Positions 2,231-57,197 of a stretch of 64,000 bases of DNA are shown piece by piece (position 1 is the first letter of the stretch; every line of letters starts with the position of its first letter). A program made the translations under genes and the position numbers. The notes beneath the pieces were generated by a model. It ran no database searches and was not told where the DNA came from. It was given only the letters and a program-made list of their open reading frames with translations. This stretch comes from Blasia pusilla (taxonomy: Eukaryota): positions 21,514,001 through 21,578,000 of the forward strand of contig CM114271.1 of assembly GCA_050084515.1 (NCBI GenBank), written 5' to 3'.

Positions 2231-3745
2231 TTTGATATAAACGTGTGATGGAAAACCCATCGGAAGTACAAAAGAGGGGGACTCAAAGAGTCAAAACCTG
2301 AAGGCTACAACAAGACCAGAAAAGGAAGAAGGGGGCATTCCCCCCCCTAATGACAAAACTCACCAACAGCAGAGACAATATCAACAACAACAAGAGAGCT
2401 ATGACTACTACTAAGTGGGCCTCTAGCTCCGGCGTCTCCCACAGCCTGAGCCCGCCGCAAAAGCCCATTAGCCTGGGCGCGCTGTAACGCTATGGAGACT
2501 CGCTGCCTACAATAGAGAATCGCAATAGCTAAGGACAACCCATTTCTCGATTGGAGATGATGGGCGCAGTCCGTAAGGAACGAGTCAAACCTCTCCCCCA
2601 TAGCCCCATACATCTCTATGGCCAGGGGGATGAAGATGTGTCCCTCGTGAAGTCGAATGTAGATATGTGTCTTCTTCACCGCCGCCGCCGCCGCCGCCGC
2701 CGCTCCTTGTAGCATTCGCCCTTGGGCCACCACTTGGCCTCGCACTACCTCTTGCATAGGATCTCTAACTACCACGTCCGCCACCACCACCTCAGCCTCT
2801 CATGTCATGTAAAGATAAGCTCGAATAAGGGAATCCCGCATGGAGTAGTGCCTCTCTCTCTGCACATGGAAGCCACTCTCCCAAGCAATACTGAACATGA
2901 TATCCTGCACTGCATCGTGAGTGGCGATCCTCTCACCCCCAACTGGACAGCGTGCCAAATGCACACCAAGTGGATCCAGGCTCCTGCAACACTCACAGTG
3001 TGTCGAACCAACCAACGATGGTTGGGGGAGGCCCAAGCAGAACCGCATCGCTGTAGTATAGGTAAGTGGTGCGATACGGAAAGCCGAGAGAAGGGGGCGC
3101 GCCCCTACCCATGAGCCTGCCCTCTTTCCGGAGCAAGAGCGAATACGGGCCCTAACCTCAATGGGGATATTCCCATCAGACATAGTGCCTCTAAAAACTG
3201 CCTCAAAGTGGGCTTCCATCAAGGAAGATTGGAGCCCAAACTGACCGGAGGTAACTAAGGAGGAGAAAGTGGGGAGAACGGCTCTGGCCTTAACTCGAAG
3301 GGAATCTCTACAAGCTGTGAGTGAAGAATGAAGTGGGAAAGAGCCATCCTCAACCTGGGAGACGTACTGTAGAAGGAGCGGTCTATCTCTAACCAAAAAT
3401 CGGGAGCAAAGGAGGGGTGCCACTGTGGCCCAACTCCCTAAAAAAGCGGAGGGCGCCACTAACCCAGTCGAGAGAAGACCTACTCCACCAAAAGAAATCG
3501 GCCAAGAGGCCTGTCTACGAGCTAACTCCCCCATGGGGCACTCTAAGGAGCCGGGTCCTAGAAGATCCCCAAACACCTGCATGAGCTTCCTATCAAAGGA
3601 TCTATATAGGGAAGAAAGGTGACTAGATGTCCAGACCGTTCTAGTGAGGTAACCAGGTCTACGAGCAAAACAAGAAGAGAGAATGCAAAAGGCGACTTGA
3701 GGGTCACGAATCCTCGTAAGATCATCAACAGGGGCTACGCAAAGA
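2231..3745 (-). mobile_element. 5'-truncated non-LTR retrotransposon with restriction-like endonuclease (CRE/NeSL-type)
   Basis: RT C-terminal ARRQASWPISFGGVGL, CCHC knuckle CECCRSLDPLGVHLARC, RIATHDAV, and PD-(D/E)xK region VVADVVVRDP...KKTH...FIPLAIEMYG. Stop at 2347 with a short 3' UTR. Boundaries approximate. Confidence 0.8.
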
Positions 3746-5076
3746 TTAGCCGGACAAAGAAGAGAGTAAAGACACGCATGCCGAGAAGTGGCAGGAGTAG
3801 GAGAGAGGCGTTGTGATGACACAGGAGGACGCAATTAAGGCGACGGTGAGCTCCTTAGGGAGCCGTGACAAGGCACGTTGTAACTCGGGACAGTTGACGT
3901 AAGGACATGGCTCCCAAGGTGACGAGCATAGGGCAACGTGCCCAAGAAGCACGTAGGCGAGAGTAGAAAAGAGTCGAGAGTTTGGGGCGTAAATAGGTCC
4001 ATAGGAACACATGCCAAAATGGGAGACGAGAGCTAAGTTGGGAGTTGGCTGGGAGTCTAGGACCAAGTGAAAGGAACTATGGGAGACGGAGGCCGGGGTG
4101 GCTTGGTCAGACGGGTCCGAGATGTCGTGTGCATACACATCGTTACAAAATATACATCGTTGTCACCGAAGACACACACAAATACGCACGACCCCATGCT
4201 AACTCATGGTATCCAAATAACGAAACAAGAAGTACCAAAATATCTCCAATAAATCAAGATTCTATCTCTCTCAACACCATAGCTCTCAAATGTGTGCACT
4301 CTCACATGTCTCTTTCAATGTCAAACCAAACCCACTCTCCTAATGAGAGGCTTGGGTTACACACACAAGGCAAGCAAGACCATAGCTCCGCCGCCTCATG
4401 CCAAGAGGTTCAACAAAGAGAGAATGAGCTCTCAAGCTTTCTTTCCTTGAGGTATACCCCTCCCCTCTCCCAAGCTCTCTCCATGGTAACCTATGCTCCT
4501 AAGTTACCTCCTTGGCTCTTGACATGATGTAGGAGGTCAAGGGTCACTTACCAAAAATAAAAAGTCGACCATATACTCAAAATGGTACTTACCTAAAATA
4601 GCAAGTTCTTCAATATGGCTCCAAATGAGCCGAAATGAAGGGGAAACGTGCTCTCTCAGGTTTCTCCGGGCCTCAACAAGTCATTCTCGACCTTGTGAGT
4701 CTATCCTCCACTACTCGCGAAGGCGCTCTACTAAATCTCACCGATCTATCCTAAGAGACGTGACACTTGTCGTGCGCATACTCATCGCTACACAACATAC
4801 ATCGTTGTCACCAAACACAAATATGAACACGCACGATCCCATGCTAACTCATGGCATCCAAACAACGAGACAAGATATACCAAAATATCTCCAATCGCCC
4901 CCCTAGCTGGTGGTTAAGTCCCTCTAACTCTAGATAGTTATCTATCCCTACCTACCATGACATAAATCTCTCGGACGCTAAGAGCAAGAAGGCCAAGTGC
5001 TCATGTGGCCCCATCGTTAGTCGCCTTCTTGTCATCCATCTCACATACACAAGTCGGAATGTAGAACTACCTACTC

Positions 5077-6128
5077 TATGTACATCTGGGACACATCCAT
5101 CATCCTTGAGGAACCCTAGTGAAAGGTGGCGTCAAACATGCCATATGCCATCCTCTCGAATATCCATCATAGACTAGCATATTGGCTGCACCACGAGCAT
5201 AACCACACAACATACATCCTAAGCCTGCAAGAACTACTGCTAAGCTCGGATCAATTGTACCGTCAAAGTTTGGAAGATGACACGGCTCATAGTTACGCAC
5301 ATGGTCCTTCCAAACCATACCATCACGTCCCTCCAATAAGAGAACACCTGATGGCAAAACCTCACGCATTCTCAAGATGGTGCGCCTTGTAGTCACATCC
5401 AACGTCGTGGATGTCGCTGCTGCAAGTAGACATAGTCTCCCTAATGAAACCTCCGGATAGTAGGTCGATAACTCCCCCGCGAATAGGCGCATACCTCAAT
5501 GTATCCCGATGTTTCGAAATCGCCAAGTTCTTAAACGCCATGGGCATCACTCACCAGAACAACTCAGCCCTCTGTAAACATGCTCTCATCCATACATTAG
5601 GGTCATCAAGGTTCAACACCTCTCCAACATCTCTACGAATGGCCATAGGTAAATCTGGCTCACGGCCATAAAGCAGCAAGTACGGTGAGAAAGACGCTAA
5701 GGATACTTGCCCGTTGAATCTGTATCCCATCGCCAACCATGACAACGGGAGGTTCCAATCTCCTAGATTACCTCTCTTCATCGTCTGCACAACCCTCTCC
5801 GCTAGTCCATCCGCCTCTGGTTGATCTCGGAAAATGGTGCGGTGGTCGATCAATGCCTAATCATACAAGGCCTGAAACTCCCCGCAAAAGTCTATACCCT
5901 AGCCTGTCAACACCTTAGTTGGTGCGCCGTAATGACTCAGCACTCGATCTAGGAAGGCATACACTATTCCCTCACTCACTTTGTCAAGCAATGCAACCAA
6001 CTCTATCCACTTCGAGAAGTGCTCGACAATCACCAACACATAACGACTATGATGCTCCTTCAAAGGCAAAGGTCCTGCAAAATTTAAACTCCATCTATAA
6101 CCTAAACCCATGACCGGAAGTGGATAGC
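5077..6128 (-). pseudogene. DDE integrase core followed by a C-terminal PHD finger (degenerate)
   Basis: Integrase: PLPVMGLGYRWSLNFAGPLP...YVLVIVEHFSKWIELV...GAPTKVLTG, QPEADGLAERVVQTMKR, FSPYLLLYGREP. PHD: CMLCG...MLVYDGYSRGWHMACLTPPFTRVPQG*WMCPRC. Confidence 0.88.
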
Positions 6129-6419
6129 AGGTCGATAAGCTAGTGAGGAGCGCGGGAGACTCTTGGTGAGTTTGAGTGGTTGAGCGGGTGAGACAAGGTG
6201 ATGATCACAACGTTCTTCTAGGTTTGGGAAGAACATGGTAGTTTGAGTAGTAGTGGTGGTGTGACACGGAGTGGGGTGAGATATCGAGGGGTTTCTAGTG
6301 AGGAGTCACCTCAACTTCCATTCGTAGCTAGATTGTCATCACTACACAGCGGGCCTGGTGACGAGATTGCAGACGGAGGTAGCGTTACTTGGCAAGAGAT
6401 GGACGACATGAGCCATTGG

Positions 6420-7140
6420 GGCCTGCCTACCTTGTTGACCACAGTCAACGGTGGTCAATCATCGTGCCTCATTGCTTGTGAGCGACAAGCTGGATCTAGA
6501 ATGGAATCCACTAATAAATGGGATGGGCGCTCCACTCTCGCATACCACCTTCGGAACATTGCATGGGGCACCAAGTTGGTCCACCATATATGCATAGACG
6601 CGGGTGATGGGCTCTAGAACCTACACTCGCCGCATCCAAGAACATTGCTAGGCCGATCCAAGCACGCACCTGATGAGCACTCGTCACCATCCGTGATCTG
6701 GAGTCTCCTAAGATTGGCACATTCTCCAGAATGTAGGCTAGAGAACAAGACTGGTGCTCCTGCAATTGCCGTAAGACCCTCAACATCTCCCAACACAACC
6801 TGGACCGAGTGTCAGCCAACCTGCTGCCTCGTCCAACACTCGATTGGCGGTGACATGGCCAACCAGAAATAACCAAATCAATGGTCCCTACCCGCTCTAA
6901 GTCCTACGCCCCCAACAACGAAATATCCCTCGGTAGGGAACTCTGGTACTTCGAACATGGATTTGAGACAATAAGTCGGGAAAACATAGGCGTAACTGTG
7001 CCACATGTCGTAGTGAGACGCGCCTCGCAACATCATCACTCTCCACATACAGGTACTGTTGTACTCGCACTCCTGCCTACAAAACATCATCTAGCCCGGT
7101 GCTAATCCCTCCAAAGAGATCTAACACTCGAATATCCTTC
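6420..7140 (-). pseudogene. DNMT3-like C5 cytosine DNA methyltransferase domain within the retroelement pol (motifs I-VIII; degenerate, C-terminus deleted)
   Basis: Motif I IRVLDLFGGISTGL, motif II YLYVESD, motifs III-IV LPRDISLLGA*DLERVGTIDLVISGWPC, motif VI YILENV, motif VIII region FLDAASVGSRAHHPRL..WWTNL. Order and spacing parallel DNMT3A (IRVLSLFDGIATGL, GPFDLVIGGSPC, WLFENV, IDAKEVSAAHRARYFWGNL). Confidence 0.9.
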
Positions 7141-7493
7141 TTCAGGGTACACCACACAATAGGTGTGATATCCAAGGGTGTCATCGTAGCACTCCTTGAT
7201 ACCTCGAATTCCTCAGACCCATCACACTCTGGTGCAAACGCCTCGCTCCACGCGGTCTGCACGTGCTTATCTGCCAATCGTCGAAGCTCCTCAGTCGAGC
7301 CCCACAACGGCACCTCTCCTCCATGGAATGATGCGACTACCATAACACTCCTCTCCATAGAAATGCCAGGAATGGGAGTATCCTCTACATGGACATGTCC
7401 CTCAATCAAATCACTAGGCCAAGTGACGGGACTGCTAAATGCTGCTAAGGTCGCCATCTCTCCTGGCTGTTGCTTGATCATTGCACCTGTGAA

Positions 7494-8041
7494 TCAAACG
7501 GGTAATGAGCTAATGCGCCCATCACATGATTGCCATCCTAGTGTGTAATTGGCTGACTCCTCCGAGTAATCTAGGGAAAACTTCATCGGGTATAACACTG
7601 TTCCACCAACCAAGATGTCGTAGGACTCTGCATCAATCACTATTGCCTTGGCTCGCACCACGGATGTCCCGGGCGAATCCTCACCACGACCTCCTGTCGG
7701 GTGATATACTGTATGGTACCTGCTCCACCCAAGGATGTCTATATCTGAAAAGGACAACGCTCCACCTCGACTCTCGTCAAGCCCAATCCTATGAATGACG
7801 CTTTCCCCAACATCAGGGGTTGCGCTCCTGAATCCAACAAGACGCGCTGCGGACTAAAAGCTCTACCTCCGGGACTCACCAAGTGGAAGACCGCTCCTCG
7901 TTTATCCAGTAACACAACATCATGAGAAGCCATGGCACGCTCTATCGCGGGTCTAGCGGGCATCTCCGCCATCCTAGCAGCCGTAGCTTGCCATGAATCT
8001 GACGTGGACGGCCCGAGCATCCGCTCCAAGGGCAAGTCCAT
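7494..8041 (-). pseudogene. Retroviral-type aspartyl protease domain of the inner element (frameshifted)
   Basis: LLDSGA catalytic motif and the downstream YDILVG motif lie in adjacent ORFs 7739-8041 and 7494-7757. Confidence 0.85.
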
Positions 8042-10731
8042 CGCTTCCTCTGCAATCTCCTCTTAACGTGATGCAGGAACTCCAACTCCGCGCTCATATA
8101 GTGAAGCGGCCAGCCAAAAAGCCTCGGCGGGCGTACCCCCCAACGTCATAACATCGGAAGCAGAAAATAAAGGAGTGCGATACACAACGGTGGCCGCCCC
8201 CAACAGCGTGCTCGACACATGCCCCTCCTGAGCATCAACATTAGGAGTCCTCGTACTTGCTTCTCCCATCACCCTCTATGCCTGCACACCAACAACATCA
8301 CCAACTCTCCAAGAACTCTGATCAGGACCCATCGATGGGGTCCTCATTGCCTCGGACAACGTGAAAGATTGAGGAAGCCTAGTCTATTTTCGGGCTTCCC
8401 CTCGTTGTGGATCCAACTCTGCGGCTCCTCTATTGGGGGCATATCACCCACGCAGTACATGACTCGACATGAGTTGGTGGTTAGACTCCAGCAAGAGCAT
8501 GAGTCGGATAGTGTGATGGTTTAGGGTCGGGCGATTACGACACCGACGGAGTCGTATGATGCGTTGGTAGGGAGTACAATGTTGTATCCCCTTGGGTTCA
8601 TTCTGGATTTTTGGGAGGAGAAGGTTTCTTATCGGCCAGGGTGGCAATCAAGTGATGGACGGGTGAGCCATCTATTGGTGTTTGAAGGGAATAGTGGTGG
8701 TTCGACCACGTGAGGATACAGTGACCACGTTGGTAACATTCATAGGTGTTGTTCGCTGATCATGAGGGTTTGGAGAGAGGAGCACACATGTAGAGGACAT
8801 TCTCGTAGCAGATAGTCCCACGGAGAGACATGTCAGGGTGGGTGTCTCTTCCCATGGTGCAGAGCTTCTTTATTGTTGTTGGAGATGATCGTTGAGATGC
8901 ATGGAGTGCAGATGAGCTTGTGAGGCAGGTGTGGAGCCGTGTCTATGTTTGGAGTAGGGCACGAGAGTGTTAGATCTCTTTGAAGGGATCAACACGGCGG
9001 GTTGCTGCAGTGTGGCAATGTTTCAGGGACGACGACACCAATGGTGCTAGATGTATATAGGATAGTAGATCATGTGAAGTACATAGGTGTTGACTATCTG
9101 GAGTTAGGGGGACCCAATTGCCAGCTAGGGGGGCGATTGTGGGGTCTCGATGTATATGTGTGAGTTGGGAAGATCGGTGTTGTGTGGTGTGTAGATGTGA
9201 CCAGCAATGTGGGTTGTGTAAGGATGTGTATGCGCACGACAACTGTCACATCTTAATAGCCAATAGGTAGAGATCTATCGTGGCGACGGCATAGAGAGCC
9301 AGCCGATTGTTTCTGAGTGTAACTTCGTCCCGAGGTGTCGGATGAGGTTGAGGATAGGTTCGTTGTGTCAAGAACGTCGTTTCTGACGACTTTCTTGTTG
9401 GGGTCTTTCATAGTCACCCCCCCTGGTAACTTGTGTGTGCAGGTTACCAGGGGGTTGCTATTTTTAGGTCTCACACCTATATAAGGGAGGAAGATGGTTT
9501 TCCCGTTGGAGTATCATTCTTGCTCGTGTGTGTGAGTTAGGATTGATTACTAGCGTCTGGATTCCTTGATAGCACATGGTGGATGAGGCTCGATATGCTG
9601 ATGAAGATTGAGGAATGGATTTTTAGGCCGGGTGTGCCATTTTAGGGGGGCGGTTGTGGGGTATCGATGTATATGTGTGAGTTGTTTGGTTTATGGATGG
9701 ATCGACCCGTGTGTTGGGAAGATCGGTGTTGTGTGGTGTGTAGATGTGACCAGCGATGTGGGTTGTGTAGCGATGTGTATGCGCACGACAGCATCGATAT
9801 ATCCTTACAACTTGGTACTTTGGTTGTTGTCAAAGTGGCCAAAATTGGTCCTATGTGCAATATAGTGCATAGAAAGCACAAAAGCGTTAACCTTTTGCTT
9901 CAATTTGGATATTGGCACGTTGTGACTCCCTACTATAGTTGACGCTCTATTCAAGCCAAAAGCCTCCATTGTTGTACTCTCTAGTCGCAAGTCTTTGATC
10001 AGATCCAACTTATTATCGATAGTAGCAGCATTTGACCATTTATCTGGACATTGCATTGCATCAATGCGTAGAAATGAACTCTCAACTTCCTCCTCTTCTG
10101 ACTACGTAAAAAATACAACCGGATGCCATGTTATAGAAATATCACTTGACTCATTGATCGTGATATCAATTTTCAAAAAAAGGGAATCTCTACATTTTGA
10201 TATTGGTCTTTATGACAAGAACCATGCTAATGTAGTAGCATATATCAATGCAACTCTTCTCATATTCATACAACTCTCTAGTGATTGGTGCATTCCAAAA
10301 AAAAAATATCTTACTCAAAATACTCAAAATCAAGAATTTAGCAAAAGCCAAGACTTCTTTTATTGTATGCACGCATACTTAAATAAAGTCAACATAGCAA
10401 CATCACGAGTTCGATTAGTACTAGAGATGGCCTTGGTCATGGATCTATTCCCATGAGAGCTTCATATGTTCCTTAGATTTTCCATGATATGTAAGGGCTG
10501 AAGCCTTTATGGCACAATTTCTTGTAAAAAACTTTGCACAAAATCTTACCACTTTCTACATGAAATTCTATCTAATTCAATAAAGAATACCACAAATCCT
10601 TCCAAGCTTCAATTCTTATTGGCTATGCCTTCCGAATGTGCATTTTTCTATCCACTTTCTTCTCATATCATATGATAAACATGATCTACTTGTATGCTCT
10701 AAACTATCTTTCTACAATCCTTATTCAACAT

Positions 10732-12372: not shown

Positions 12373-15300
12373 CTACTCCGCCATCTCTTTCTTCTTCTTC
12401 TTCTCCTTCTCCTTCTTCTCCTCTTCCTCCAGAAGGATATTTTTCAATGCTTCATAGCACATAAACGACAGCCCGGCTGCCGGTACAAGCTTAAGACAGC
12501 TGGGCCCAAGACCCCTGTACAAACCAGCCAGTCCCTCCTCTCGAAACACAGAAACCAAACAATCTAATGTATTCCTGTACAGTGGTCTCCCTTTAAGAGC
12601 GCCAACCTGCATCCGCTTACGAGCAACTTCTAGGGGAAATGTGGCAGAGCTAGCAATAGCTCCAGCTAGTGAACCGATCAAAAGAGTTTGAAAATTGCCG
12701 ATATGGTCTGTCTCGAAGCACCTTTTGTAGAGAGAGCGCAAATAATCATAGGCAAAATAATTCGTACCAGCGTATGGGACTATACCGACCACGCTCGGCC
12801 CAAGCCCCCGATATAGCTCCGCAAAGCCTTCCTCGCGGACTATCCGCCATAACGCATGGGAAAAACTGCGATACTCTTCTGGCTGTTTCTCCAATTCGAA
12901 ACAAAGAAACGCATGCATCAGGACCACAGGGATGTTACTTGCTGTGACAGATTGATTTTGGTTTCGAATCGGAAAAAAAAATTTGACGGGGACTCTCAAC
13001 AGTGCTATCTGAACATCTTCTTACGAACTCTGAACACAATATATGCTCCATTACGCTTTCCAAGTTTCCTGCCCTCGTCCATAAACTCCACACCCTTTGC
13101 ATTCGAAATTTACGAATCATCACCGTAGATAATACACAAGACCCTCGGATATCAAAAGAAAAATTTGATTCAATACTGTACAAAAACTTTCACAGATCTC
13201 ATTAACGTGACCTTCCGAAAAGTTAGAACAAAGTGCACAACCCTTCAAAGACCAAGTTACCAAACAAGTGAGCATGACAATGCCTCCTAGAAACCTATTT
13301 AACCTTCCAAATATCCATTTCGCACCGTTTCTGCGACTAACTACGGGATGAACGAGAAGAGTTTGCTAGCTCTCATTCTCTATTCGGCAGAGAGCCTATT
13401 GGCCTTTAGGACCCTTCCATATGTGTGGCTTGGCGTCCCCTCTATCTAACCACGGGCTGAACTAGAGAAGATTGATGGATCTCAGTGTCCAGTCCGCAGA
13501 AGCCTATGGGCAACAAGTCTATGTATGGGCACTGGCGTCTCAACCATCTAACCACCAACCGAAGAAGCAATGCTTTGTTGGTTTCATTTTCTAGGGCCAT
13601 GGGCAATGCACACTTTTTCCTGTGGTTGTGACAACCCCCAATGTCAGAACCAGTTATTGAACTCACGACTCTATTGGGAGGATGTTAGAAAAGTTCCACT
13701 GGACTCAGCAGCCATCCACCTCTGGAGTGTTATTGTCCGAATGGGAAACCACACTCAAATCATCTATTATAATCTGTTGGGTAACTTCAGGTGGGAATTG
13801 AAGGGTCCAGTGATCAGGGCTGAGTAGGTCCGTCTGGGTTAGAGTAACAGGAGGTGATTCTCTTGGCGTGTCTAGTCTGGTATTGGTCTATACGACCAAA
13901 TAGATCCCAATTGGGATAATTTTGGGTACCGGTCGCTGGCACCTTGCCTCTACAACCCTGGGCAGGTCGAGAATGGGTGGCAGTCATACTCCACGCTTCT
14001 GACACCATTGTTGTGCTAACAATACAATAAACTTGGGTCAAAAGTCTTCCTTTTGGGACGGTGTTTCCTACGAGCTATCTCCGTCATCCTATAGGTGATC
14101 TCAGAGAATTTCTTCTCATATTTCGCAGTACACACCATGGTGACTGTGGAAACGAAAACTAACTGGAAGTTAGCATTCCCTCCAGAGAAGAGAGTGCACT
14201 AACCACGGATATGTACGTCGCTATCATCCTGCCATTGAACTAAAAGAAAGCGTATGAAGAGACGCAACAAAAAGTGTAAAGACCATTATTGCATGTGTCT
14301 TAATATAAGTGAGAGGACCATTATGCCATGTGTCCAGGCATTTAAAAGATACGTGACAAAGTCGTGGAGAACGTCTTGGTAAGGGATAATTGAAATAACC
14401 TGAATGGTAAGGCGTGTTTTGAGAAGCTCCAGAGGATACATCAACACTGTGGAACTGATTCCTGCTGCTGAGCCAGCTATTGATGAAGCGGGAATTTTGA
14501 GACCAGCTTCTCCTTCCTTTGGTGTCAAAGCGACTTTCAACTTATCAAATACGAATAGCTGATACAAGGTAAAACAGATAAGGTTAAACCAAGATTTAGT
14601 ACGTTGTTCTTCACAATGTCGGACCCAAGAACTTGACGGCACTAAAACATTGTCCTCACTGAGAGATGAGAAAAAACTGCCAGAAAGTCGTCAATGAACA
14701 CTCCTATCCGAAGCCAATAGACGGGTTTCCTCAAAATTAACAGACAATTATTCAGTTTGAGAGCTTTGGAATTCCAATGCTCTCATTTGAGACTCTGCGT
14801 GAAGACAACATATTCATACTCAAAGACATCGTGTATTTAAATCTTGGCCAATTAAACACTTTCAGGTTTAAAATTTCACCTCGATAGCTTTGCTTGGAGC
14901 CACCCTGATGACATTGATGGTGTTACCGCGAAAGAGCCCTGTCCAACCTTCATTCTCCAAGATCCACTCCATAACGCCTTTGATGGATTTACCATGTCTC
15001 CCAACCATCATATGCGTTCTTATAGTTTCCAATGGAGCTACGGCCGTGCGAGAAAAAGCTCCTGCGATAGCTCCACTAAGCAGTCTTCGCCCATTGCTTC
15101 CTATCTTAATCTGAAATCTAAACCCTTTCCGTCCAGCAGCGTCCGGATGATTCTCACCCGATGATTCATATTCGTCACTAGAACTACAGCGTTCAAAATT
15201 GGTTTGTTTCTCCCGGACAGATTCGTCGAGGGCCAAATGAGTGCATTCATCTACCGAATTGGGAAGGAACTCAGGATGCGGTTTATCCTTCGAAGAGGTC

Positions 15301-15770
15301 ATCGAGCTGAAGTTCGACAGGTCAGGTGTAGACGGATCATATTCAGGTGTCGACCCAGGGAAAAGATGATCCATTGAGTCGTACAGCAACTCGGCACAAG
15401 TTAGTTCGCCGAGTTCTCCTATTTTCCGAATCTTCTGGCTACCACTAAAACTCTCCACGCCGAAAACTGGAGAGTCCTGGCGCGGACCTTCGGACAGCAC
15501 AGCTCCTCTTTTCCTCGACCTCTGCCTTTCAGAAAACGTAACATTCGGCTTGACTTTGGTGCTGAAAACGGGGGGTAAATCTTTCCTTGGAGACGCAGCT
15601 TTTCTGCTGGAAACCTTGAAGAGACTGTGAGAAAAACGGTCGCCATCGGATGTTCGTGACGCATTCAAGCCATTCCAGTTCGCTCGCAGTGGATTGGAAT
15701 TCTTCAACCATGTCACAAACTCCAAAACACTATTAAACGGCGGCTTCAAGTCTAGTGCAGGCCCCGCCAT
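12373..15770 (-). CDS. BT1: Adenine nucleotide transporter BT1 (Brittle1)-like mitochondrial carrier family protein; exons 14880-15770, 14400-14558, 12373-12882
   Basis: Three carrier repeats (APLETIRTH, YPLELLKTR, FPLEVARKR), GLFRGNTINVIRVAPSKAIE, canonical GT-AG junctions in frame, and a long N-terminal extension. Confidence 0.92.
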
Positions 15771-18700
15771 GGAACCCTGCCCTTCGAATCTTCTTCTTCT
15801 CACTCCCTCCCAGTTCTTCCTCTGTCCTTTTCCAAATTCGATTCTCACCGCAACTCAAGCGCTTCGCTCTCCATGTTTCTTCACAATTCGCCCTTCATTC
15901 TGCTGGATCTCCCTACCTTCCACATCCGACGCCGCTTCGCAAAGCCTCCGTCTCCGTATCGCGTTGGCCACTCACTTCTCCGCTGGTGGGCAATATAATT
16001 AAATCACACACACACTCTTATAAAAAGAAAAAATACAGACGACTGACAAATGTTGAAACCCCACCGTTTACCCAACCAACAATCATCTCTACCCTACACT
16101 TCTCACTACTCCTCGGATGTCCCGTGGCAGCGTTGATTCGACGAGTGCGCCTCAAAAGCTTCGAGACGGGCCACGGCCACACGACAGCCAGCCGGACCGG
16201 CTTCCCACGACGCTCCCGCTGTGCCAAGTGTGGACCCAGGTGCCGCCCACTTGGCGAGCTCCCGAGGCTTACACCTTTTCCTGCAGACGGACGCTCCGTC
16301 CCCTTGTACCGAATGCTGATGGGAACCGCGATATGCGGTATTTGTTGAATTTTGAAGCCAGGCTATGGTGGTCGGGGAAGGGGTTGTGGTTTCCCCTTTT
16401 ATCATGTATGTTCGGCAATGCCATAAGGAGTATGTTACAAGTCTAAAGGAGATGGTGAACAAGATTTGATTTATATCGTAAAAGGATATAGATTCATCTC
16501 ACTAACCACAGAAATGTATGGGAGCGGAGATGATGACCAAGGTTTAATTCTATGGTCGTATAAGGATAAAGATTCATCTCCCTAACCATAGAAATGTATG
16601 GGACTACGAGGAACGTTTTTGACGTGTTGGAACACGCCCTGGTCGCGATCAATTTTTTTCAATTGAAAAATGACTTGTCCTTTGACCACTTATAGTGTAA
16701 ACAACTTGTCTCCATCGCTTCGCAACAAACCAATGGGCTTATGAGGGAGGAGCCACTACTAGTCACCATTAAGAAAGCCTCCCAGAGTGTGTGGATAAAC
16801 GAATTGAAATTGAGAAGATGGTCCTTGGGTACTACTGGTTTTACCGGGATTTGTAGTTAATGAATGTGTGCATCTCTTACGTGCAGGTGGTTTATGGCCG
16901 CAGTTTCGGAGGAGGAAAGGATAGGGCCTTGTAGTCAATGACTGCGTGTATCTCTTACGTGCAGGTGGTTCGTTGCCTCGGTTTTACAGGAGAAAAGGAT
17001 AGGGCTTTCATCGATGTTACAGTTGAAGTCCCATCCCTGTTTTGCAGACGTCGTGACTGCTGTGCTGCTCTCTCGTCTTGCAATTCTCTGTGGTTTGAAT
17101 TGTACGGAGTCCGCGAGTAATCTGTCGAGTGCATGAATGCACTGACTACGGCAGACAATGTGCGGCAGTATCACGACCACAAGTATCCTTCGCATAGCCC
17201 CCCCATGGCAAGCTTGTCTGTGCAATGAATAGGTTTGTCATCTACATCATGTACTGTAATGGAACAATGTACTGTCAGGAAAGTAGGAAGCCCATGCGCA
17301 TGCTCTTTATTTCTACAGCTTCAATGCGGCTTCTTACAGGTGGGTGAAATTTGAGGAAACCAATGTATCATTGGGCAGTCGGACGCATCTCGTATGTTGT
17401 CGATCCGGGGATGTCGTTCAGTCGAGTGGAAGTCCGAAAAGTGTTGGAGATCCTAGCCTGAGTAGTATTGGGAGGGGAACTGGACGATGCCTATTGCATC
17501 AATGCCGGAAGGAGGCAGACGAGAAATACTGCAGTGGATAGCGTTCAAGGCGGAGATGAACATCTAGCTAGGATAGTTCCTCCTCTGGCTAACGGCTTAT
17601 GGTCCCAAAGGCTAAGAAAAGCAGTACCTAGCCACTTAACAAACACAAACATCAAAGTACGCTTTGTAGTAAGCAAGCCCAACTCAATCAACTCCACTAC
17701 AACCCGTACATATTGGACAAATTGAACCCTAATTTAGCTGCCTCGCACATTTCTCTTACCTTCTTTTCTAACCCTATCTATCTCTGCTCAAATTCAGCTC
17801 TCATTCATAAATTAAAGTATCTGAAGGAAAGGACTCCACCATCAAGACGTAGAGTGTGGCTAAACCAAATCTTTAGCACTTTTTTCCTTACAACACTCAA
17901 CAGTTCACAAGAAATTCCCGTCATACAAACGTCTCATATCGCCGATGTAAGCACAAACTGGAGTTGCGTACATACCTAAGAACCGATGGGAAGTAGACTC
18001 GCTTGGGACGGCGCTGGTTGAGAATGACGTTTTTTTTTACGCTGGTTGGTTCGCTCTGTTGTAGGTAAATATGGTTGGGCAGGGCTGAAGTCAGCCGAAG
18101 ATGGGGAGAACATTTTCCCCAATAGTTTCATGTTCCAAATCAGCCGTAGAAGACGAATCATATACGTGTTTTCAGTCGGAATACATCGTGGAAAGTGCCT
18201 CGAATGGATCAGCATGTTGAACCCCGAGCATTCAATCGCATTTTCAAGACTCACTTGAACTGCTATTTGCTTCACTCCTCCCTAAAATCATTATACGGAC
18301 TCTGCCACGATGTTCACAACCTCACATGCAGTACACATACAACCAAGTAGCGCTCCAAGGTTTCTCCAGGCTGCGAGCTAATACGAAGAGAGTGGTAGCG
18401 ATTCAGGTCTAGACAGCAAAGTAGGTGAATTCAACGGAGAAAGACACGTAGGGCATGCCACAAGGGTGAGAAGAGGAGATGAGCAGCATTCGACATCCTG
18501 TCCTTGATACGCAAGGCCGCATATTCCAGATTACAATCACGTCGAAGATGGAAGTAGTAGAGGTTCTTGAAAATCTACCAAGACTGGTTGGATATAGAAA
18601 CATTTACATTCTCAAGAGAAGATGCCTTCTTGTTACGAAGAAATGTGTATATGATGCCATGGAATGGTTGACAGATGTGAGATGACAAAATGTTGGTGCG

Positions 18701-19924: not shown

Positions 19925-22900
19925 GCACGACTTGGGAGCTTTGTCGGGAATCACCCATCGCTTCATCAAAACCAATGGCATCAACATGCACATTGCAGAA
20001 GCAGGAACAGGTAAGACGATCAAGACGGTGGTTAAGCTTAGTGAGTTCTCTCGATCCTCAATTTATGCGAAGTGTTACACACTACCATCATAGCTCTTAC
20101 CCCATATACTGCGGGTTAGAAGACGGGAGACAATCGCGTCTGCACACAAAGAATATGGGTTGACCCATTTTACATTCAAATTGCACGTCTATGTCAATTC
20201 CCCGTCAATCTCGTCGGGAAAACTGAAAGAGGACTGTGATCACAGGCATGGGAAAGTTCTCAAATTGCTTTCGAATGCTTTCTCATGTAAGACCGGGGAA
20301 CAAGTTCAACCCATAGGAGACGAAGAAAAAGAAGACCTTACTGTGAAAGCAAAATTAGACTGATCACGAACAGGTAGATGCTGTTCTTGGACAGGGACTG
20401 GAATCGGCCTGTGGGTACTTTCTGATCAAAACCTCGTTTGAACTGATCTTTTCGAAGAAGTCGTTAGGATATTTCCCTATCGAATCGAGCTTCCTTGGGG
20501 TTCTTACTGATGCAATTGCACCAATCATCTGAGACTTCACATAGGAAGTTTCTACTGAAATTGTAGAGTTGCACACTGTATGGCAGGGTTACATAAAGCT
20601 TTATGACTTGGTTGTTGTCTTTTTCGGATTTATACTCTCTTCTCAGACCACGTGGATTTCGTTTCTAATGTCCCTTGGTTACCTGGAAGGCCCCAGCTTT
20701 TGAAAGTCTCGATGAATAAGTTATGGCCAGGAATAGTCTCCTGCTCTTTACTTCAAGAAGCTCTGCGAGTTTCGTGATATGCAATCTATTGTGTTCTTGG
20801 TACGAGGAAACTACAGGACCGCTTGTTCTTCTAGTGCATGGGTTCCCCGATTTTTGGTACACTTGGCGTTCCCAACTACCTGCACTAGCAAAGGCAGGAT
20901 TTCATGCGGTTGCCCCAGACGTTCGAGGGTTTGGTGAAACTGATGGACCATTGGAAGCCGAAAAGTACACAATGTTCGACATAGTCGGCGACTTGGTTGG
21001 CCTAATTGATGCTCTCGGGGAAGACCAGGTGATCACCTTATTCACCATTTATGATGTGCTTCTAATCTGGACTCTGTTTGAACAATCAACTACTTGTGTT
21101 TCTCGTTGTAAGTCTAGACACCCACCAGATTGGAACATCTCGACTCATATGCATGGCTGAATTTAAGGGTGCCACATGATATTACGCTTACTTTTGCTTT
21201 ATAATAACTTGAAGCGCTTTGCTTCGAATCAAGTTTCCCAAAGAGTGATAGTGAGTGTTCTTTTTATTAGCGTCTGACCTGTGCTGTATATGAAGATTGT
21301 ATGAGAACTTACGGCTCATATATCAAGGAGCAGTATGCAAGAGTGTATGTTTTCATGCAATCCACGGTCATTTTTATGAACAGATCTTAAATCTGTGATT
21401 GAGAGGTCCTAAGTCATCGCATCGAGTTCAAAAATGTGACTTAAGGGCTGGTGCTGCTTGTATTCTATATGTTTGAAGCACCCTTCTTGTGCCTCGAGGA
21501 TTGCTGACAAGAGAGAACAGATCTTTGTGGTAGGACACGATTGGGGAGCGGAGGCTGCTTGGGCTTTTGCCCTATTTAGACCAGACAGAGTGCGAGGAGT
21601 ACTTGCCCTCAGTGTTCCGTACGGCCCAAGGCAGGCAAAAGGGAGCTTTCTTTCAAACGTTAGATCACGACTGGGCGAAGGGTGGTATATGGTCCACTTC
21701 CAGGTATTAGGGCGGCTTTGTGTCCGTAGTCGTGAACGTCCATATCTGTTTTTAATGAATTTATGGCAGGTTGGATGCGGGGTGCTGGAAGAGGTAGACG
21801 CTCACCTCTTACTCCCGGACTTGGAGATATTTTGTAAGGTGCCTCAAAGCACGGCACCTTATAAAGAAACATACCCTCTGACGTAAAGAGACATCTAATT
21901 ATTTACAATCAATGGCTCTAGATTCAATCACCACTTTGGAAATTCTCGACATGTCATATTCCACTACATGCAGTCAGATATCAATTTTGCAAAAAAAATA
22001 ATATCAGCTATGGTATCTCTCCGTTTCTTTCTCACCTGTTCCTATTCCTATTCTTTAGAGGCTTGAATTCATGCCAGTCTGAGGGAAGTGTGTGCTCTTG
22101 CCCAAGATTTACTGGCAATTCGGTAGGGACACTGCTCATTTGCTCTTCCTTGAGTTTTCCTCGTACATTGGCGGCCACTGCATTCACCCCATCAGTATCC
22201 AATCTTTCCATAGTTCACGATGGAAAATGGAAAAGGAGAATACTGATATCAAGTTTCCTCTTTTGTTGGAATGTGTTGAACTACAGAAACCAGGATATGC
22301 AGAAGCTGAAATCAACCACATCGGCCTGCCTACGTTTTTACGACAGATTCTGCTTTCTTCGCAAACTAGTCCCTTGATTGTTCCGGATGGCAAAAGACTA
22401 CGGGATGTCTTCCAAGGAAATGCATCACTGACGTCATGGTTCAGTGCAGAAGATCTCAACAATTATGTTCGAGCTTTCGAAAAGAGTGGTTTGACTAGGC
22501 CTTTGAATGTGTACCGCAACATAGAGAGGTGAGTTCTTCACTCCTCTCAGTTAGTGATTAGTTTTCCTTCTCTTCTGCTTATGAGTGTTTGGGGCAGTCG
22601 CATGGATGAGGAGAATAGCTTCGTTTCCAGATGCAATCGGAGAGAGAAATTTGGACACAGCCATTTTCATTTGGGTGGGCATGATTTAGTACTGGTGAGT
22701 GTTCGATGCAGTAGCCATGTTCACAATGAGAGTGGGTGGACTCTCCTTCGGAATATACATGAGTGAACTCCGCAATACCAAATTCCTTTAGCTTCAAGGT
22801 TGGAAAGTGATCACTGATATATGCAGAGTAGCAAGAGCAATCTTTCACCATAAAGCTTGTTCTGTTTGACTCATGAACTTGTCCGATTGACAGAAAGATA

Positions 22901-27994: not shown

Positions 27995-28537
27995 GTGCGC
28001 ATAGCAACATTCACATTGCTACACAACATACATCGTTGTCATCAAACATACACACAAACACACATGATCTCATGATAATTCTTGGTATTCAAACATCGAG
28101 ACAATAAGTACCAAAATATCTCCAATCATCCCCCTAGCTAGTGGTTAGGTCCCTAAAACTCCAAATAGTCACATTTCCCTACCTACCATGATATACATCT
28201 TTAGGACGCTAAGAGCAAAAAAGTTCGGTGCTTATGTGGCCCCATAGTTAGTCGCCTTCTTGTCATCCATGTCATAGTTTCAAGTCGGAATTTATAACTA
28301 CCTACTCTATGTACATATGGGACACATCCATCATCCGCGAGAAATCCTAATGAGAAGTGGCGTCAGACATACCATATCCGACCCTCTCGAACATCCATCA
28401 TAGACTATTATAGTGGCTTCACCATGGGCAAAACCACACAACATACAACGTAAACTTGTAGGACCTATTGCTAAGCTCGAATCAACTGTACCGTCGATGT
28501 TAGGAAGGTAACTTGGTGCATAGTTACGCACATGACC
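27995..28537 (-). mobile_element. Second fragment of family 2 (integrase tail, PHD, 3' UTR, PPT, B1)
   Basis: Colinear with 4771-5305. Translation HVRNYAPSYLPNIDGTVDSSLA...CMLCGFAHGEATIIVYDGCSRG. Confidence 0.88.
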
Positions 28538-35332: not shown

Positions 35333-35915
35333 TGTCACATCTTAGTGGCCGATAGGCATAGATCTATCGTGGTGACGGTGTAGAGAGCCATGGGACTGTC
35401 GTGAGTGTAACTTCGTCCCGAGATGTCGGATGAGGTTGGCAACATGTGTGTTGCATCGGCAACGTCGTTTATGGCGATGTCCCTAGTTTTCTCTTAGTCC
35501 ATCAAGTGACCAATTGACCGAGTCAACGGTCATCTGGTAACCTGTGCACGCAGGTTACCGTTATGAGGGCTATTTTTGGGTATAAGAGTGAGAGAGATGG
35601 CTTTCTCAAGCCATCTTTCTCATGTTGAGCCTTAGGAGCACCTCTCTTGCATGTAGGTGTGTGGGTGTGTAGGAACTAGGGTGCTAGCGTCCGTATTCCC
35701 TCATAGTGGAGGGTGGATGTGGTTCGATATACCAATGTAGATTCATAAGTGGAGTTTTAGGCCGGGTGAGCCGTTTCTACTACTCTGATTTTTGTTGTGG
35801 GGTCTCGATGTATATGTGTGATTTTGCTTTGTTTATGGTTAGATCGACCCGTATGTTGGGAAGATCGGTGTTGTGTGGTGTGTAGATGTGACCAGCGATG
35901 TGTACGTGCACGACA
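35333..35915 (+). mobile_element. Solo A-B terminal unit of family 1 with a 4-bp TSD (ACTA)
   Basis: TGTCAC...CACGACA, colinear with 9244-9790. ACTA at 35329-35332 and 35916-35919. The neighbouring copy of a ~67-bp tandem repeat shows the empty site ggaatttACTAgcagaacc. Confidence 0.92.
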
Positions 35916-57057: not shown

Positions 57058-57162
57058 ATGGGGAGCAGGGGCGCAGCGAGCGCCTTCGTGGAGAAGGTGG
57101 TGCTGTGGGTGTCGCAGGAGAAAGAGGAAGTTGGAGAAGCGGCGGGAGAGAGGGGTGAGTGA
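57058..57162 (+). promoter_or_regulatory. Candidate upstream ORF (34 aa) in the SLT1/FYD-like leader
   Basis: ATG in ggcATGG context. Encodes MGSRGAASAFVEKVVLWVSQEKEEVGEAAGERGE* and ends 35 nt before the main ATG. Confidence 0.55.
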
Positions 57163-57197
57163 TCGATCGAGCGGTTACATGCTGGGAGACTGCGGCC

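What the first reader, a model, noticed from the sequence alone, without database searches (positions are those of the whole stretch)
6420..7140. DNMT3-like C5 methyltransferase embedded in a land-plant retrotransposon pol
Seen: motifs I, II, IV (GWPC with the catalytic Cys), VI (ENV) and VIII in order, on the pol strand, after the protease and a linker and upstream of the integrase. Established: retrotransposon-borne cytosine MTases were reported in dinoflagellates and the charophyte Klebsormidium (de Mendoza et al. 2018). Inference: such a lineage persisted in, or entered, a land plant and may methylate its own cDNA or target sites. This copy is dead (stops, frameshifts, motifs IX-X and RT deleted).
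Basis: partly seen in the sequence, partly recalled or inferred. Interest (0 to 1): 0.85.

Follow-up and report, generated by a model that had tools for sequence, protein, structure and literature searches.

The report
Dead retrotransposon copy carrying DNMT3 methylase
A broken copy of a jumping gene in a moss-like land plant shows that its family carries its own DNA-methylating enzyme, a trait so far described in print only for algae.

Summary
On the minus strand, 7175-6416 encodes motifs I, II, IV (GWPC), VI (ENV) and VIII of a C5 cytosine methyltransferase (Pfam PF00145, 31.4 bits against a cut-off of 22). It lies after a protease and a conserved linker and before an integrase core and a decayed PHD finger.

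The copy is dead. It has in-frame stops and frame breaks. About 770 residues found in intact relatives are missing: motifs IX-X, reverse transcriptase, RNase H and the integrase zinc finger.

It is not a one-off capture. The same protease-linker-methylase layout occurs in 8 Marchantia polymorpha models, one Calypogeia fissa model and 65 of 72 fetched metagenome loci. One intact relative has protease-methylase-RT-RNaseH-integrase-PHD in a single ORF. A family profile and a predicted fold both rank DNMT3A/B/C first.

In relatives a stop codon separates the Gag-protease-methylase frame from RT-integrase in 35 of 35 loci. In DNA runs under the species label of the best holder, thousands of contig pieces match. 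RNA reads cover the methylase region, probably in sense.

Host genes place the window in a bryophyte-grade land plant. I found no paper naming such elements in land plants. Enzyme activity is untested.

The parts
7664..8437 (-). Aspartic protease region of the element (LLDSGAQ at 7820-7840). It is broken by an in-frame stop at 7739-7741 and a frame change near 7700. The Gag part of relatives (Marchantia P0275 residues 1-452) has no match upstream.
   Evidence: tblastn: P0275 residues 453-695 map to 8437-7664 at 44% identity. Pfam itself gave no hit on the pieces.
7176..7663 (-). Linker between protease and methylase, shared with liverwort models. It holds an in-frame stop at 7494-7496.
   Evidence: P0275 residues 705-941 map to 7649-6951 (48% identity) and P0151 residues 213-378 map to 7667-7053. 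The P0014 alignment runs through the stop in one frame.
6416..7175 (-). DNMT3-like C5 cytosine methyltransferase domain: motifs I, II, IV, VI and VIII and the start of the target-recognition region. It has three in-frame stops (7077-7079, 6904-6906, 6455-6457) and two frame breaks (6984-6951 and 6598-6589).
   Evidence: Pfam PF00145 at 31.4 bits. PDB sequence search puts DNMT3A first. It is 61-67% identical to P0001, P0002, P0006, P0151 and P0152. In the tree it sits in a 14-row clade with all 8 Marchantia rows and the Calypogeia row, SH-aLRT 99.
6151..6415 (-). Copy-specific junction where intact relatives carry about 770 more residues (motifs IX-X, RT, RNase H, integrase zinc finger).
   Evidence: P0040 residues 1193-1960 are unmatched between window 6458 and 6120. 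P0006 stops aligning after about residue 132. Family read depth collapses in 6207-6343. Reads and contigs that match up to 6125 then continue with other letters: 20 and 60 DNA records, 80 and 65 RNA reads.
5491..6150 (-). Integrase catalytic core (VEHFSKWIELVAL at 5989-6027), with frame breaks.
   Evidence: P0285 residues 1978-2213 map to 6153-5473 at 49.6% identity; P0040 residues 1961-2177 map to 6120-5491 at 46%. Pfam rve scores only 21.5 bits, below its 32.6 cut-off.
5082..5477 (-). Integrase C-terminal region with a decayed PHD finger. Two zinc-binding Cys are replaced by Tyr and there is an in-frame stop at 5100-5102.
   Evidence: Alignment to P0285 residues 2221-2344, whose PHD is Pfam PF00628 at 2300-2344. 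There was no Pfam hit on the window piece itself.
4768..5081 (-). 3' untranslated end of the internal region.
   Evidence: Window 4761-6111 aligns at 68% with L002 16317-14967, and L002's 3' LTR starts at 16313. The same stretch is 82-83% identical to 28008-28331.
8345..8740 (+). Inverted fragment of a second protease region, head-to-head with the main copy. This is a rearrangement at the 5' side.
   Evidence: P0151 residues 184-269 and P0275 residues 670-755 map to 8426-8680 on the plus strand at 50% identity; P0152 residues 107-210 map to 8345-8680.
28008..28534 (-). Second fragment of the same family elsewhere in the window (PHD and 3' end). It shares the in-frame stop before WMCP with the main copy.
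   Evidence: blastn: 4777-5303 is 82% identical to 28008-28534. tblastn finds the PHD at 28534-28313.
9246..9643 (.). Dispersed direct repeat with copies at 1213-1654 and 35333-35793. It may be an LTR, but whether it belongs to this copy is unresolved.
   Evidence: 79% gapped identity to 1213-1654 and 69% to 35333-35902. No significant likeness to the LTR of relatives.

Best explanation
The locus is a decayed, internally deleted and 5'-rearranged copy of a Ty3/gypsy-type LTR retrotransposon family that encodes its own DNMT3-type C5 cytosine methyltransferase. The intact layout is Gag(CCHC)-protease-methylase, then a stop, then RT-RNaseH-integrase-PHD.

Shown:
- the domain identity and order
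- the family-wide, multi-species occurrence, including liverworts
- the DNMT3-like sequence and fold
- purifying selection on the methylase between intact lineages
- the conserved stop between the methylase frame and the RT frame
- abundant copies and RNA reads in runs that carry the species label of the best holder

Inferred:
- In living copies, Gag-protease-methylase is the main translation product and RT-integrase-PHD is made by occasional read-through of the stop.
- The methylase would therefore be made with Gag, and perhaps packaged with it. It could then methylate the element's own new DNA or its landing site, while the PHD finger on integrase reads histone tails to choose that site.

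This particular copy makes no enzyme and is a fossil.
For: Domain identity:
- Pfam PF00145 on the window piece.
- 239 relatives at E<=1e-3.
- Of 24 long relatives scanned, 19 carry retroelement domains and none carries a host-type PWWP or ADD domain.
- Of 40 mid-length relatives, 9 carry retroelement domains.

Architecture:
- P0285 has PR 663, MT 953, RVT 1443, RH 1660, INT 1925/1996 and PHD 2300 in one ORF.
- L036 has ORF1 with PR+MT and ORF2 with RT-RH-INT-PHD in the same frame, one stop apart.
- LTR pairs of 307-342 nt at 88-94% identity flank about 9 kb in L002, L029 and L038.

Land-plant relatives:
- Calypogeia fissa and 8 Marchantia polymorpha models.
- They collinearly cover window 8437-6350.
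- The window's methylase sits in their clade, SH-aLRT 99.

DNMT3 likeness:
- Profile against PDB: DNMT3A 91 bits, the next family at 49 bits.
- AlphaFold model of the L014 methylase ORF: pLDDT 84.4, pTM 0.81.
- Every row shown through rank 50 is DNMT3A/B/C.

Selection between stop-free copies:
- L036 vs L041: dN/dS 0.13 at dS 0.26.
- L002 vs L014: 0.17; L014 vs L023: 0.16. dS is near saturation for both.

Stop between the frames:
- Present in 35 of 35 loci that span the junction: 26 TAG and 9 TAA.
- Followed by CAACCC in 29 of them.

Abundance and RNA:
- 13350 and 77104 DNA contig pieces were laid at >=80% likeness.
- 3218 and 3585 RNA reads were laid, with a strand bias of 10:1 or more.
- RNA depth is 45-80 over the methylase region.
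Against: - This copy has no RT or RNase H, so its class rests on relatives.
- Its own LTRs could not be fixed. The flanking repeat 1213-1654 / 9246-9643 also occurs at 35333 and shows no significant likeness to relatives' LTRs.
- No tree with host DNMT3, DRM or the Klebsormidium elements could be built, because no tool supplied those sequences. 'DNMT3-derived' therefore rests on profile and fold ranking.
- Most copies elsewhere are also decayed. 33 of 40 loci have stops in the methylase. Only 5 of 32 family loci of 6 kb or more have a plus-strand ORF of 400 aa or more.
- Over all usable copy pairs, dN/dS is only moderately low: methylase median 0.53, RT 0.39.
- Catalysis is untested. The Klebsormidium enzyme gave no detectable methylation in yeast, which the authors called inconclusive.
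- The sense-strand reading of the RNA assumes the usual stranded library chemistry.
Confidence: 0.9

Rival explanations
1. A piece of the host's own DNMT3 gene was captured once, or simply landed next to a retrotransposon fragment at this locus. On this reading it is a local accident and not a trait of an element family.
For: This copy lacks RT, so the protease, methylase and integrase pieces could in principle be an accidental mosaic. The region is visibly rearranged, with an inverted protease fragment at 8345-8740.
Against: The same protease-linker-methylase collinearity holds in 9 named liverwort models and in metagenome loci. Identity to those methylases is 61-67%, against only a weak match to DNMT3A (E 0.017). 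Thousands of contig pieces in DNA runs match the methylase part.
Confidence: 0.02
2. The Gag-protease-methylase frames of liverworts are domesticated host genes derived from an old element and are no longer parts of mobile elements. The window would then hold a pseudogene of such a gene.
For: The Marchantia annotation lists them as genes of about 960-1280 aa with PF00145 as the only precomputed Pfam domain (none for P0318) and no RT.
Against: In 35 of 35 metagenome loci spanning the junction, the frame continues past one stop codon into RT-RH-INT-PHD. LTR pairs flank the unit. The copies are many, diverged and mostly decayed. In the window, integrase and PHD follow on the same strand.
Confidence: 0.05
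3. The domain is kept by the elements but does not methylate DNA. It might act as an RNA m5C methylase on the element's transcript, or as a DNA- or chromatin-binding module without catalysis.
For: No activity has been shown for any streptophyte element enzyme; the yeast test of the Klebsormidium enzyme was negative or inconclusive. In part of the wider family motif IV reads GWECQ and not GWPCQ.
Against: The catalytic Cys, ENV and the motif VIII arginines are kept in intact relatives, and motifs IX and X are present. The fold and best matches are those of the DNA enzymes DNMT3A/B/C and not DNMT2. dN/dS is low across the whole domain between stop-free lineages.
Confidence: 0.15
4. The lineage did not persist vertically from streptophyte algae. 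It entered bryophytes by horizontal transfer.
For: The wider family is patchy and includes a chlorophyte (Chlamydomonas eustigma). Methylases have moved between Gypsy and Copia backbones.
Against: The window, Marchantia and Calypogeia copies form one well-supported clade with deep internal branches, which fits long residence. No donor is identifiable. Taxon sampling here is set by what the databases name.
Confidence: 0.25

Closest known systems
KnitGypsy-Dnmt3 of the charophyte Klebsormidium nitens (de Mendoza et al. 2018, PMC5890265; section 9 and passages read)
   Same: A non-rearranged DNMT3-type methylase sits inside the coding region of a Gypsy-type LTR retrotransposon of a streptophyte. 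Many intronless copies exist, and purifying selection on the methylase is reported there (Ka/Ks < 0.2) and seen here between intact lineages (0.13-0.23).
   Different: The host here is a land plant of bryophyte grade, with named relatives in liverworts. Relatives here have ordinary direct LTRs, whereas the paper's figure legend describes a DIRS-like repeat layout. A conserved stop between methylase and RT and a PHD finger after integrase are seen here; the word PHD does not occur in that paper. No direct sequence comparison was possible, because the element sequences are in supplements I could not see.
SymbioDIRS-Dnmt3 and SymbioLINE-Dnmt of Symbiodinium (same paper)
   Same: Retrotransposons that carry a C5 methylase. 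Two SymbioDIRS-Dnmt3 enzymes methylated CG de novo in yeast.
   Different: They have different backbones (DIRS with tyrosine recombinase, and LINE), a different host kingdom and independent acquisitions.
Host DNMT3A/3B/3C (solved structures) and plant DNMT3 and DRM2
   Same: They are the best sequence-profile and fold matches. The motif order I to X is not rearranged. The C-terminal pattern E-x-ER-x-x-GF ... R-x-LLG of intact relatives resembles DNMT3A.
   Different: There are no PWWP or ADD reader domains. The methylase is fused to Gag-protease. Identity in the fold alignment is about 20-21%. Motif IV is GWPCQ or GWECQ and not the DNMT3A SPCN seen in the alignment. DRM matches only over its rearranged half.
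Chromoviruses and PHD-bearing LTR elements, as named in de Mendoza et al. [quoted passage not shown]
   Same: A chromatin-reader domain sits at the integrase C-terminus and is thought to steer integration.
EpiLTRs (bioRxiv 10.64898/2026.05.21.726589, passages read)
   Same: LTR elements that assemble several epigenetic modules.
   Different: Those combine an adenine methylase, a methylase sister to the DNMT4 clade and a chromodomain, and occur in protists. That preprint lists 'streptophytes (Gypsy-DNMT3)' only as earlier work.

Membership tests
C5 cytosine DNA methyltransferase (Pfam PF00145) | Score above the curated family cut-off | tested here: met
   31.4 bits against a cut-off of 22 for window 6514-6903(-).
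C5 cytosine DNA methyltransferase (Pfam PF00145) | Motifs I (FxGxG), IV (PC with catalytic Cys), VI (ENV) and VIII in this order (motif names recalled) | tested here: met
   Coordinates. Alignments to relatives.
C5 cytosine DNA methyltransferase (Pfam PF00145) | Motifs IX and X, which complete the fold | tested here: not met
   Absent from this copy, because the match ends near 6416-6353. Present in relatives P0006, P0014, P0017 and P0040. The copy is a truncated member.
DNMT3 family | Closer to DNMT3 than to DNMT1, DNMT2, DRM or bacterial enzymes | tested here: met
   Profile: DNMT3A 91 bits, DRM 49, HaeIII 42, HhaI 40, DNMT2 28, no DNMT1 at E<=0.01. Fold: every row shown through rank 50 is DNMT3A/B/C. 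This is a ranking and not a phylogeny.
DNMT3 family | Monophyly with host DNMT3 genes in a tree that includes DRM and other classes | not testable with these tools
   No tool returned host DNMT3, DRM or Klebsormidium sequences as usable records. The tree holds element methylases and one bacterial-type row only.
Ty3/gypsy LTR retrotransposon | Order PR, RT, RNase H, INT with RVT_1-type RT | tested here: inconclusive
   RT and RNase H are missing from this copy. The order is met in relatives P0285, P0040, L036 and L014.
Ty3/gypsy LTR retrotransposon | Flanking direct LTRs | tested here: inconclusive
   The window repeats 1213-1654 and 9246-9643 are 79% alike, but a third copy lies at 35333 and they show no significant likeness to relatives' LTRs. 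Relatives have LTR pairs.
Retrotransposon-borne DNMT3 (Gypsy-DNMT3 sense of de Mendoza 2018) | Methylase is part of the element's own coding region in many copies, not a neighbouring gene | tested here: met
   Collinear PR-linker-MT in 9 named models and in metagenome loci. The frame is shared with RT across one stop in 35 of 35 loci.
Retrotransposon-borne DNMT3 (Gypsy-DNMT3 sense of de Mendoza 2018) | Same lineage as the Klebsormidium elements | not tested
   No Klebsormidium sequence was available. The supplements of PMC5890265 were closed.

The most novel reading that the evidence does not exclude
A Gypsy lineage that is still alive in bryophytes, including the model liverwort Marchantia, makes a Gag-protease-DNMT3 fusion as its main product, upstream of a conserved leaky stop codon. 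The methylase travels with the particle and methylates the new DNA copy or its landing site, while a PHD finger on integrase picks the chromatin. On this reading, part of the methylation on land-plant transposons is written by the transposons themselves and not by the host.
Probability: 0.2. Interest if true: 0.85.

Novelty: new member of a known kind. Interest (0 to 1): 0.62.

Why it matters
Retrotransposons that carry their own cytosine methyltransferase are known in print from dinoflagellates and one charophyte alga. The role of the enzyme is open, and the charophyte enzyme could not be shown to work.

This finding places the same kind of element in land plants. Relatives are annotated, unremarked, in the genetically tractable liverwort Marchantia polymorpha. 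In public runs under the species label of the best holder the family is abundant and transcribed.

That makes a standing question testable with ordinary genetics and methylome data: does a transposon-coded methylase hide the element, mark its insertions or disturb host methylation? The conserved stop that puts the methylase on the Gag side, and the PHD finger on integrase, give concrete hypotheses to test.

The window's copy itself is a fossil and has no function.

Tried and rejected

Searches that found nothing:
- Rfam found no family in the window.
- No tRNA genes were found, so no primer-binding-site check was made.

Sequencing runs: organisms are coded, so no species name came from this. 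No RNA holder is listed among the indexed runs.

The closer alignment A2 worked.

LTR hunt:
- L036 has no terminal repeats in its contig.
- LTRs of L029, L002, L038 and L053 find nothing in the window.
- Global alignment of the window repeat to the L029 LTR scores within shuffles for 2 of 3 copies.
- A short inverted likeness between 9093-9253 and 4938-4756 (68%) and a tandem piece 9126-9241 / 9643-9790 (95%) are left unexplained.

Pfam gave no hit for the window's protease, linker or PHD pieces.

The all-pairs dN/dS is blurred by decayed copies, so I rely on stop-free pairs only.

A tree with host DNMT3, DRM and Klebsormidium was not possible. I considered using PDB chain sequences printed in alignments and rejected the idea, because they are not stored records.

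Literature:
- Searches for a report in liverworts, bryophytes or land plants found none.
- Passages read in PMC11982613, PMC5784723, PMC12344493 and PMC10952607 do not mention one.
- Supplements were closed and might hold such a listing.
Full report
**The observation**

Reading the minus strand, three adjoining pieces carry the methylase motifs.
- 7080-7493 ends in motif I (LDLFGGISTG, 7095-7124).
- 6900-7076 holds motif II (YVESDD, 7032-7049).
- 6514-6903 holds motif IV (ISGWPCH, 6850-6870), motif VI (ILENV, 6718-6732) and motif VIII (SRAHHPR, 6598-6618).

The last piece alone passes Pfam's curated threshold for C-5 DNA methylase (31.4 bits against 22, E 1.7e-7). In a sequence search of solved structures its best matches are DNMT3A chains, though weakly (E 0.017). 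Against 1.84 billion representative proteins it finds 239 proteins at E<=1e-3 and 30 at E<=1e-10. The best has E 1.8e-31 and 61% identity.

**Anatomy of the copy**

I mapped intact relatives onto the window with tblastn. The order on the minus strand is:

| Window coordinates | Part |
|---|---|
| 8437-7664 | protease (LLDSGAQ at 7820-7840) |
| 7663-7176 | linker shared with liverwort models |
| 7175-6416 | methylase |
| 6415-6151 | unmatched stretch |
| 6150-5491 | integrase core |
| 5477-5082 | integrase tail with a PHD finger |
| 5081-4768 | 3' untranslated end |

The 3' end aligns at 68% with relatives up to the first bases of their 3' LTR.

- The methylase has in-frame stops at 7077-7079, 6904-6906 and 6455-6457, and frame breaks between 6984-6951 and at 6598-6589.
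- Further stops lie at 7739-7741 and 7494-7496 and at 5100-5102.
- Two zinc-binding Cys of the PHD finger are now Tyr.
- Residues 1193-1960 of the full-length relative P0040 have no counterpart in the window. These comprise motifs IX-X, reverse transcriptase, RNase H and the integrase zinc finger.
- Gag is also absent. In its place there is an inverted fragment of a second protease region at 8345-8740 on the plus strand.

A further fragment of the family (PHD and 3' end) lies at 28008-28534. It shares the stop before WMCP with the main copy.

I could not fix the LTRs of this copy. The repeat at 1213-1654 and 9246-9643 is 79% alike, but it also occurs at 35333 and is not significantly like relatives' LTRs.

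**It is a family trait, not a local accident**

Domain content of the relatives:
- Of 24 long relatives scanned with Pfam, 19 carry retroelement domains (RVT_1 or RVT_2, RNase H, integrase, protease, zinc knuckle). Four show only PF00145 and one is unrelated. None has PWWP or ADD.
- Of 40 mid-length relatives, 9 carry retroelement domains and 2 are ordinary bacterial-type methylases.

Three layouts occur:
- protease-methylase-RT-RNaseH-integrase, with or without PHD
- RT-RNaseH-methylase-integrase-PHD
- a Copia-type form

The window shows the first layout. Its integrase is closest (49.6%) to P0285, a 2358-aa single ORF with protease 663, methylase 953, RT 1443, RNase H 1660, integrase 1925/1996 and PHD 2300.

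A scan of metagenome contigs gave 72 loci, of which 65 have a methylase match.
- L036 carries ORF1 (1369 aa, protease and methylase) and ORF2 (1047 aa, RT-RNaseH-integrase-PHD) in one frame, one stop apart.
- L014 is similar but has one extra stop.
- L002, L029 and L038 show LTR pairs of 307-342 nt at 88-94% identity around about 9 kb, beginning TG and ending CA.
- Most copies are decayed. 33 of 40 loci with a full-length methylase match have 1-9 in-frame stops. Only 5 of 32 family loci of 6 kb or more have a plus-strand ORF of 400 aa or more.

**Host and named relatives**

The host gene at 57159-58589 (an SLT1 / HSP20-like protein by the names of its relatives) shows this gradient of identity:

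| Relative | Identity |
|---|---|
| Sphagnum | 67% |
| Physcomitrium | 63-64% |
| Diphasiastrum | 62% |
| Selaginella | 57% |
| ferns | about 54% |
| angiosperms | about 53% |

That gradient fits a bryophyte-grade land plant. A mitochondrial-carrier gene and an alpha/beta-hydrolase gene with introns lie nearby.

The only named relatives of the element's methylase in its own layout are liverworts: one Calypogeia fissa model and eight Marchantia polymorpha models. A Chlamydomonas eustigma protein belongs to the second layout.

In a tree of 49 methylase domains, the window's copy (read through with X at the breaks) falls in a 14-row clade with all Marchantia rows and the Calypogeia row (SH-aLRT 99). 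The second layout forms one clade (99). Copia-borne methylases nest among Gypsy-borne ones. The tree has no host DNMT3 row, and its one bacterial-type outgroup row is short and on a long branch.

**DNMT3 likeness**

- A profile of 18 family methylases hits DNMT3A at E 4e-25 (91 bits) and DNMT3B/3C at about 1e-22. Next come DRM (49 bits, over its rearranged half only), M.HaeIII (42), M.HhaI (40) and DNMT2 (28). No DNMT1 appears at E<=0.01.
- The methylase ORF of L014 is 72% identical to P0006 and lies in the window's clade. It folds with mean pLDDT 84.4 and pTM 0.81, with pLDDT above 90 over most of residues 11-350.
- Every row shown through rank 50 of the Foldseek PDB list is DNMT3A, 3B or 3C. 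TM to target is 0.79-0.84 for the catalytic-domain chains, at 20-21% identity.
- The motif order is not rearranged as it is in DRM.
- In part of the wider family motif IV reads GWECQ and not GWPCQ. The window has GWPC.

**Selection**

- Between stop-free copies, L036 against L041 gives dN 0.034 and dS 0.259, so dN/dS is 0.13 over 324 codons.
- L002 against L014 gives 0.17 and L014 against L023 gives 0.16, with dS near saturation.
- The very close pair L002 and L023 gives 0.93, as expected for decay after insertion.
- Over all usable pairs the median is 0.53 for the methylase (433 pairs) and 0.39 for RT (75 pairs). These values mix selection with neutral decay.

**A conserved stop puts the methylase on the Gag side**

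- In 35 of 35 loci that span the boundary, the frame that carries Gag, protease and methylase ends in a stop. RT follows in the same frame.
- The stop sits at the same alignment column in 33 loci and a few columns away in 2.
- It is TAG in 26 and TAA in 9.
- It is followed by CAACCC in 29.
- L036, L041 and L014 have TAG followed by CAGTTA or CAACCA. These fit the CARYYA read-through context that I recall from plant viruses. That motif is recalled and was not tested, and the common CAACCC departs from it at the last base.
- The single-ORF relatives P0285 and P0040 lack this stop.
- The window's copy has lost this region.

**Abundance and RNA**

I laid two DNA runs (contigs) and two RNA runs (raw reads) on 4700-8800 at 80% likeness or more. 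All four carry the species label of the best holder.
- DNA: 13350 and 77104 contig pieces were laid, most of them 80-95% alike. This marks a large, diverged family; the depths are not copy numbers.
- RNA: 3218 and 3585 reads were laid, from 6% and 12% of the runs. Only 17 and 18 were 99% alike or better, so this copy itself is at most faintly represented.
- First mates lie on the plus strand by 10:1 or more. In the usual stranded libraries this means the RNA is of the minus strand, which is the coding sense.
- RNA depth is 150-270 over integrase, PHD and the 3' end, and 45-80 over protease and methylase. It is near zero in 6207-6343 and beyond 8536.
- At 6125 many DNA and RNA records continue with other letters, which fits other copies not sharing this deletion.
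- At the frame break near 6585, 33 of 41 and 24 of 26 RNA reads differ from this copy by an 8-letter gap.

**How it most likely works**

Shown: the family encodes a complete DNMT3-type domain under purifying selection, in the same frame as Gag and protease, ahead of a conserved stop.

Inferred: Gag-protease-methylase is the major product and RT-integrase-PHD a minor read-through product. The enzyme would then be made in Gag-like amounts and could be carried in particles next to the new DNA copy.

My best guess, at about 50-60% given an active enzyme, is de novo methylation of the element's own new DNA or insertion site, with the PHD finger guiding integration. Other roles are possible, such as acting on host or rival sequences, acting on RNA, or a non-catalytic role.

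Near-intact relatives are strongly depleted in CpG (observed/expected 0.28 in L014 and 0.55 in L036, against 0.74 for the whole window). This fits long-term CG methylation but does not show who writes it.

**What is known**

- De Mendoza et al. 2018 describe such elements in Symbiodinium and in Klebsormidium nitens, and speak of an acquisition 'in the K. nitens lineage'.
- Two later papers by related authors refer to 'streptophytes' only by citing that work.
- Seven searches found no report for liverworts, bryophytes or land plants, and none for two Marchantia gene identifiers.
- Supplements were closed and could hold such a listing.
- PHD fingers in retrotransposons are known.

**Verdict**

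The locus is a fossil copy of a land-plant member of a known kind of element. The family-level facts are what make it worth follow-up: relatives in Marchantia, the conserved stop, the PHD finger, the abundance and the RNA reads.

Noticed in passing
window 2350-3834 (-): Two open frames (344 and 150 aa) between the element's 3' end and the repeat at 1213-1654 have no Pfam hit. By protein-language features they are nearest to clusters named 'reverse transcriptase domain-containing protein (fragment)' from streptophytes (score 0.96). They probably belong to the tail of a non-LTR retroelement inserted here. This is a lead only.
   Followed up: partly
L001-L065, junction between methylase and RT frames (e.g. 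L036 5083-5085, L014 4509-4511): A stop codon is conserved in 35 of 35 loci, usually TAG followed by CAA CCC, with RT in the same frame. This suggests programmed read-through as the way the pol part is made.
   Followed up: yes
alignment A1, e.g. P0083, P0048, P0081, P0143: In part of the wider family the catalytic motif IV reads GWECQ and not GWPCQ. The proline before the catalytic cysteine is replaced by glutamate.
   Followed up: no
window 9126-9790 and 4756-4938: A piece at 9126-9241 recurs at 9643-9790 (95%) on either side of the 9246-9643 repeat. It is weakly similar, in inverted orientation, to the element's 3' untranslated end (68%). The origin of this arrangement is unexplained.
   Followed up: partly
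window 5100-5102 and 28313-28534: The main copy and the second fragment share the same in-frame stop inside the PHD finger. Both may descend from an already defective copy or from a duplicated segment.
   Followed up: no
L014, L036, L002: Near-intact relatives are CpG-poor (observed/expected 0.28, 0.55 and 0.59) with an excess of TpG+CpA. The window's old copy is at the window's average of 0.75.
   Followed up: partly
tree; P0122, P0053, P0055: Copia-type elements (RVT_2, copia Gag) carry methylases that nest among Gypsy-borne ones. The methylase module has therefore moved between element classes.
   Followed up: partly
window 12373-15854 (-), 20720-22532 (+), 57159-58589 (+): Host genes flank the element: a mitochondrial carrier with introns, an alpha/beta-hydrolase with introns, and a single-exon SLT1 / HSP20-like gene.
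   Followed up: partly
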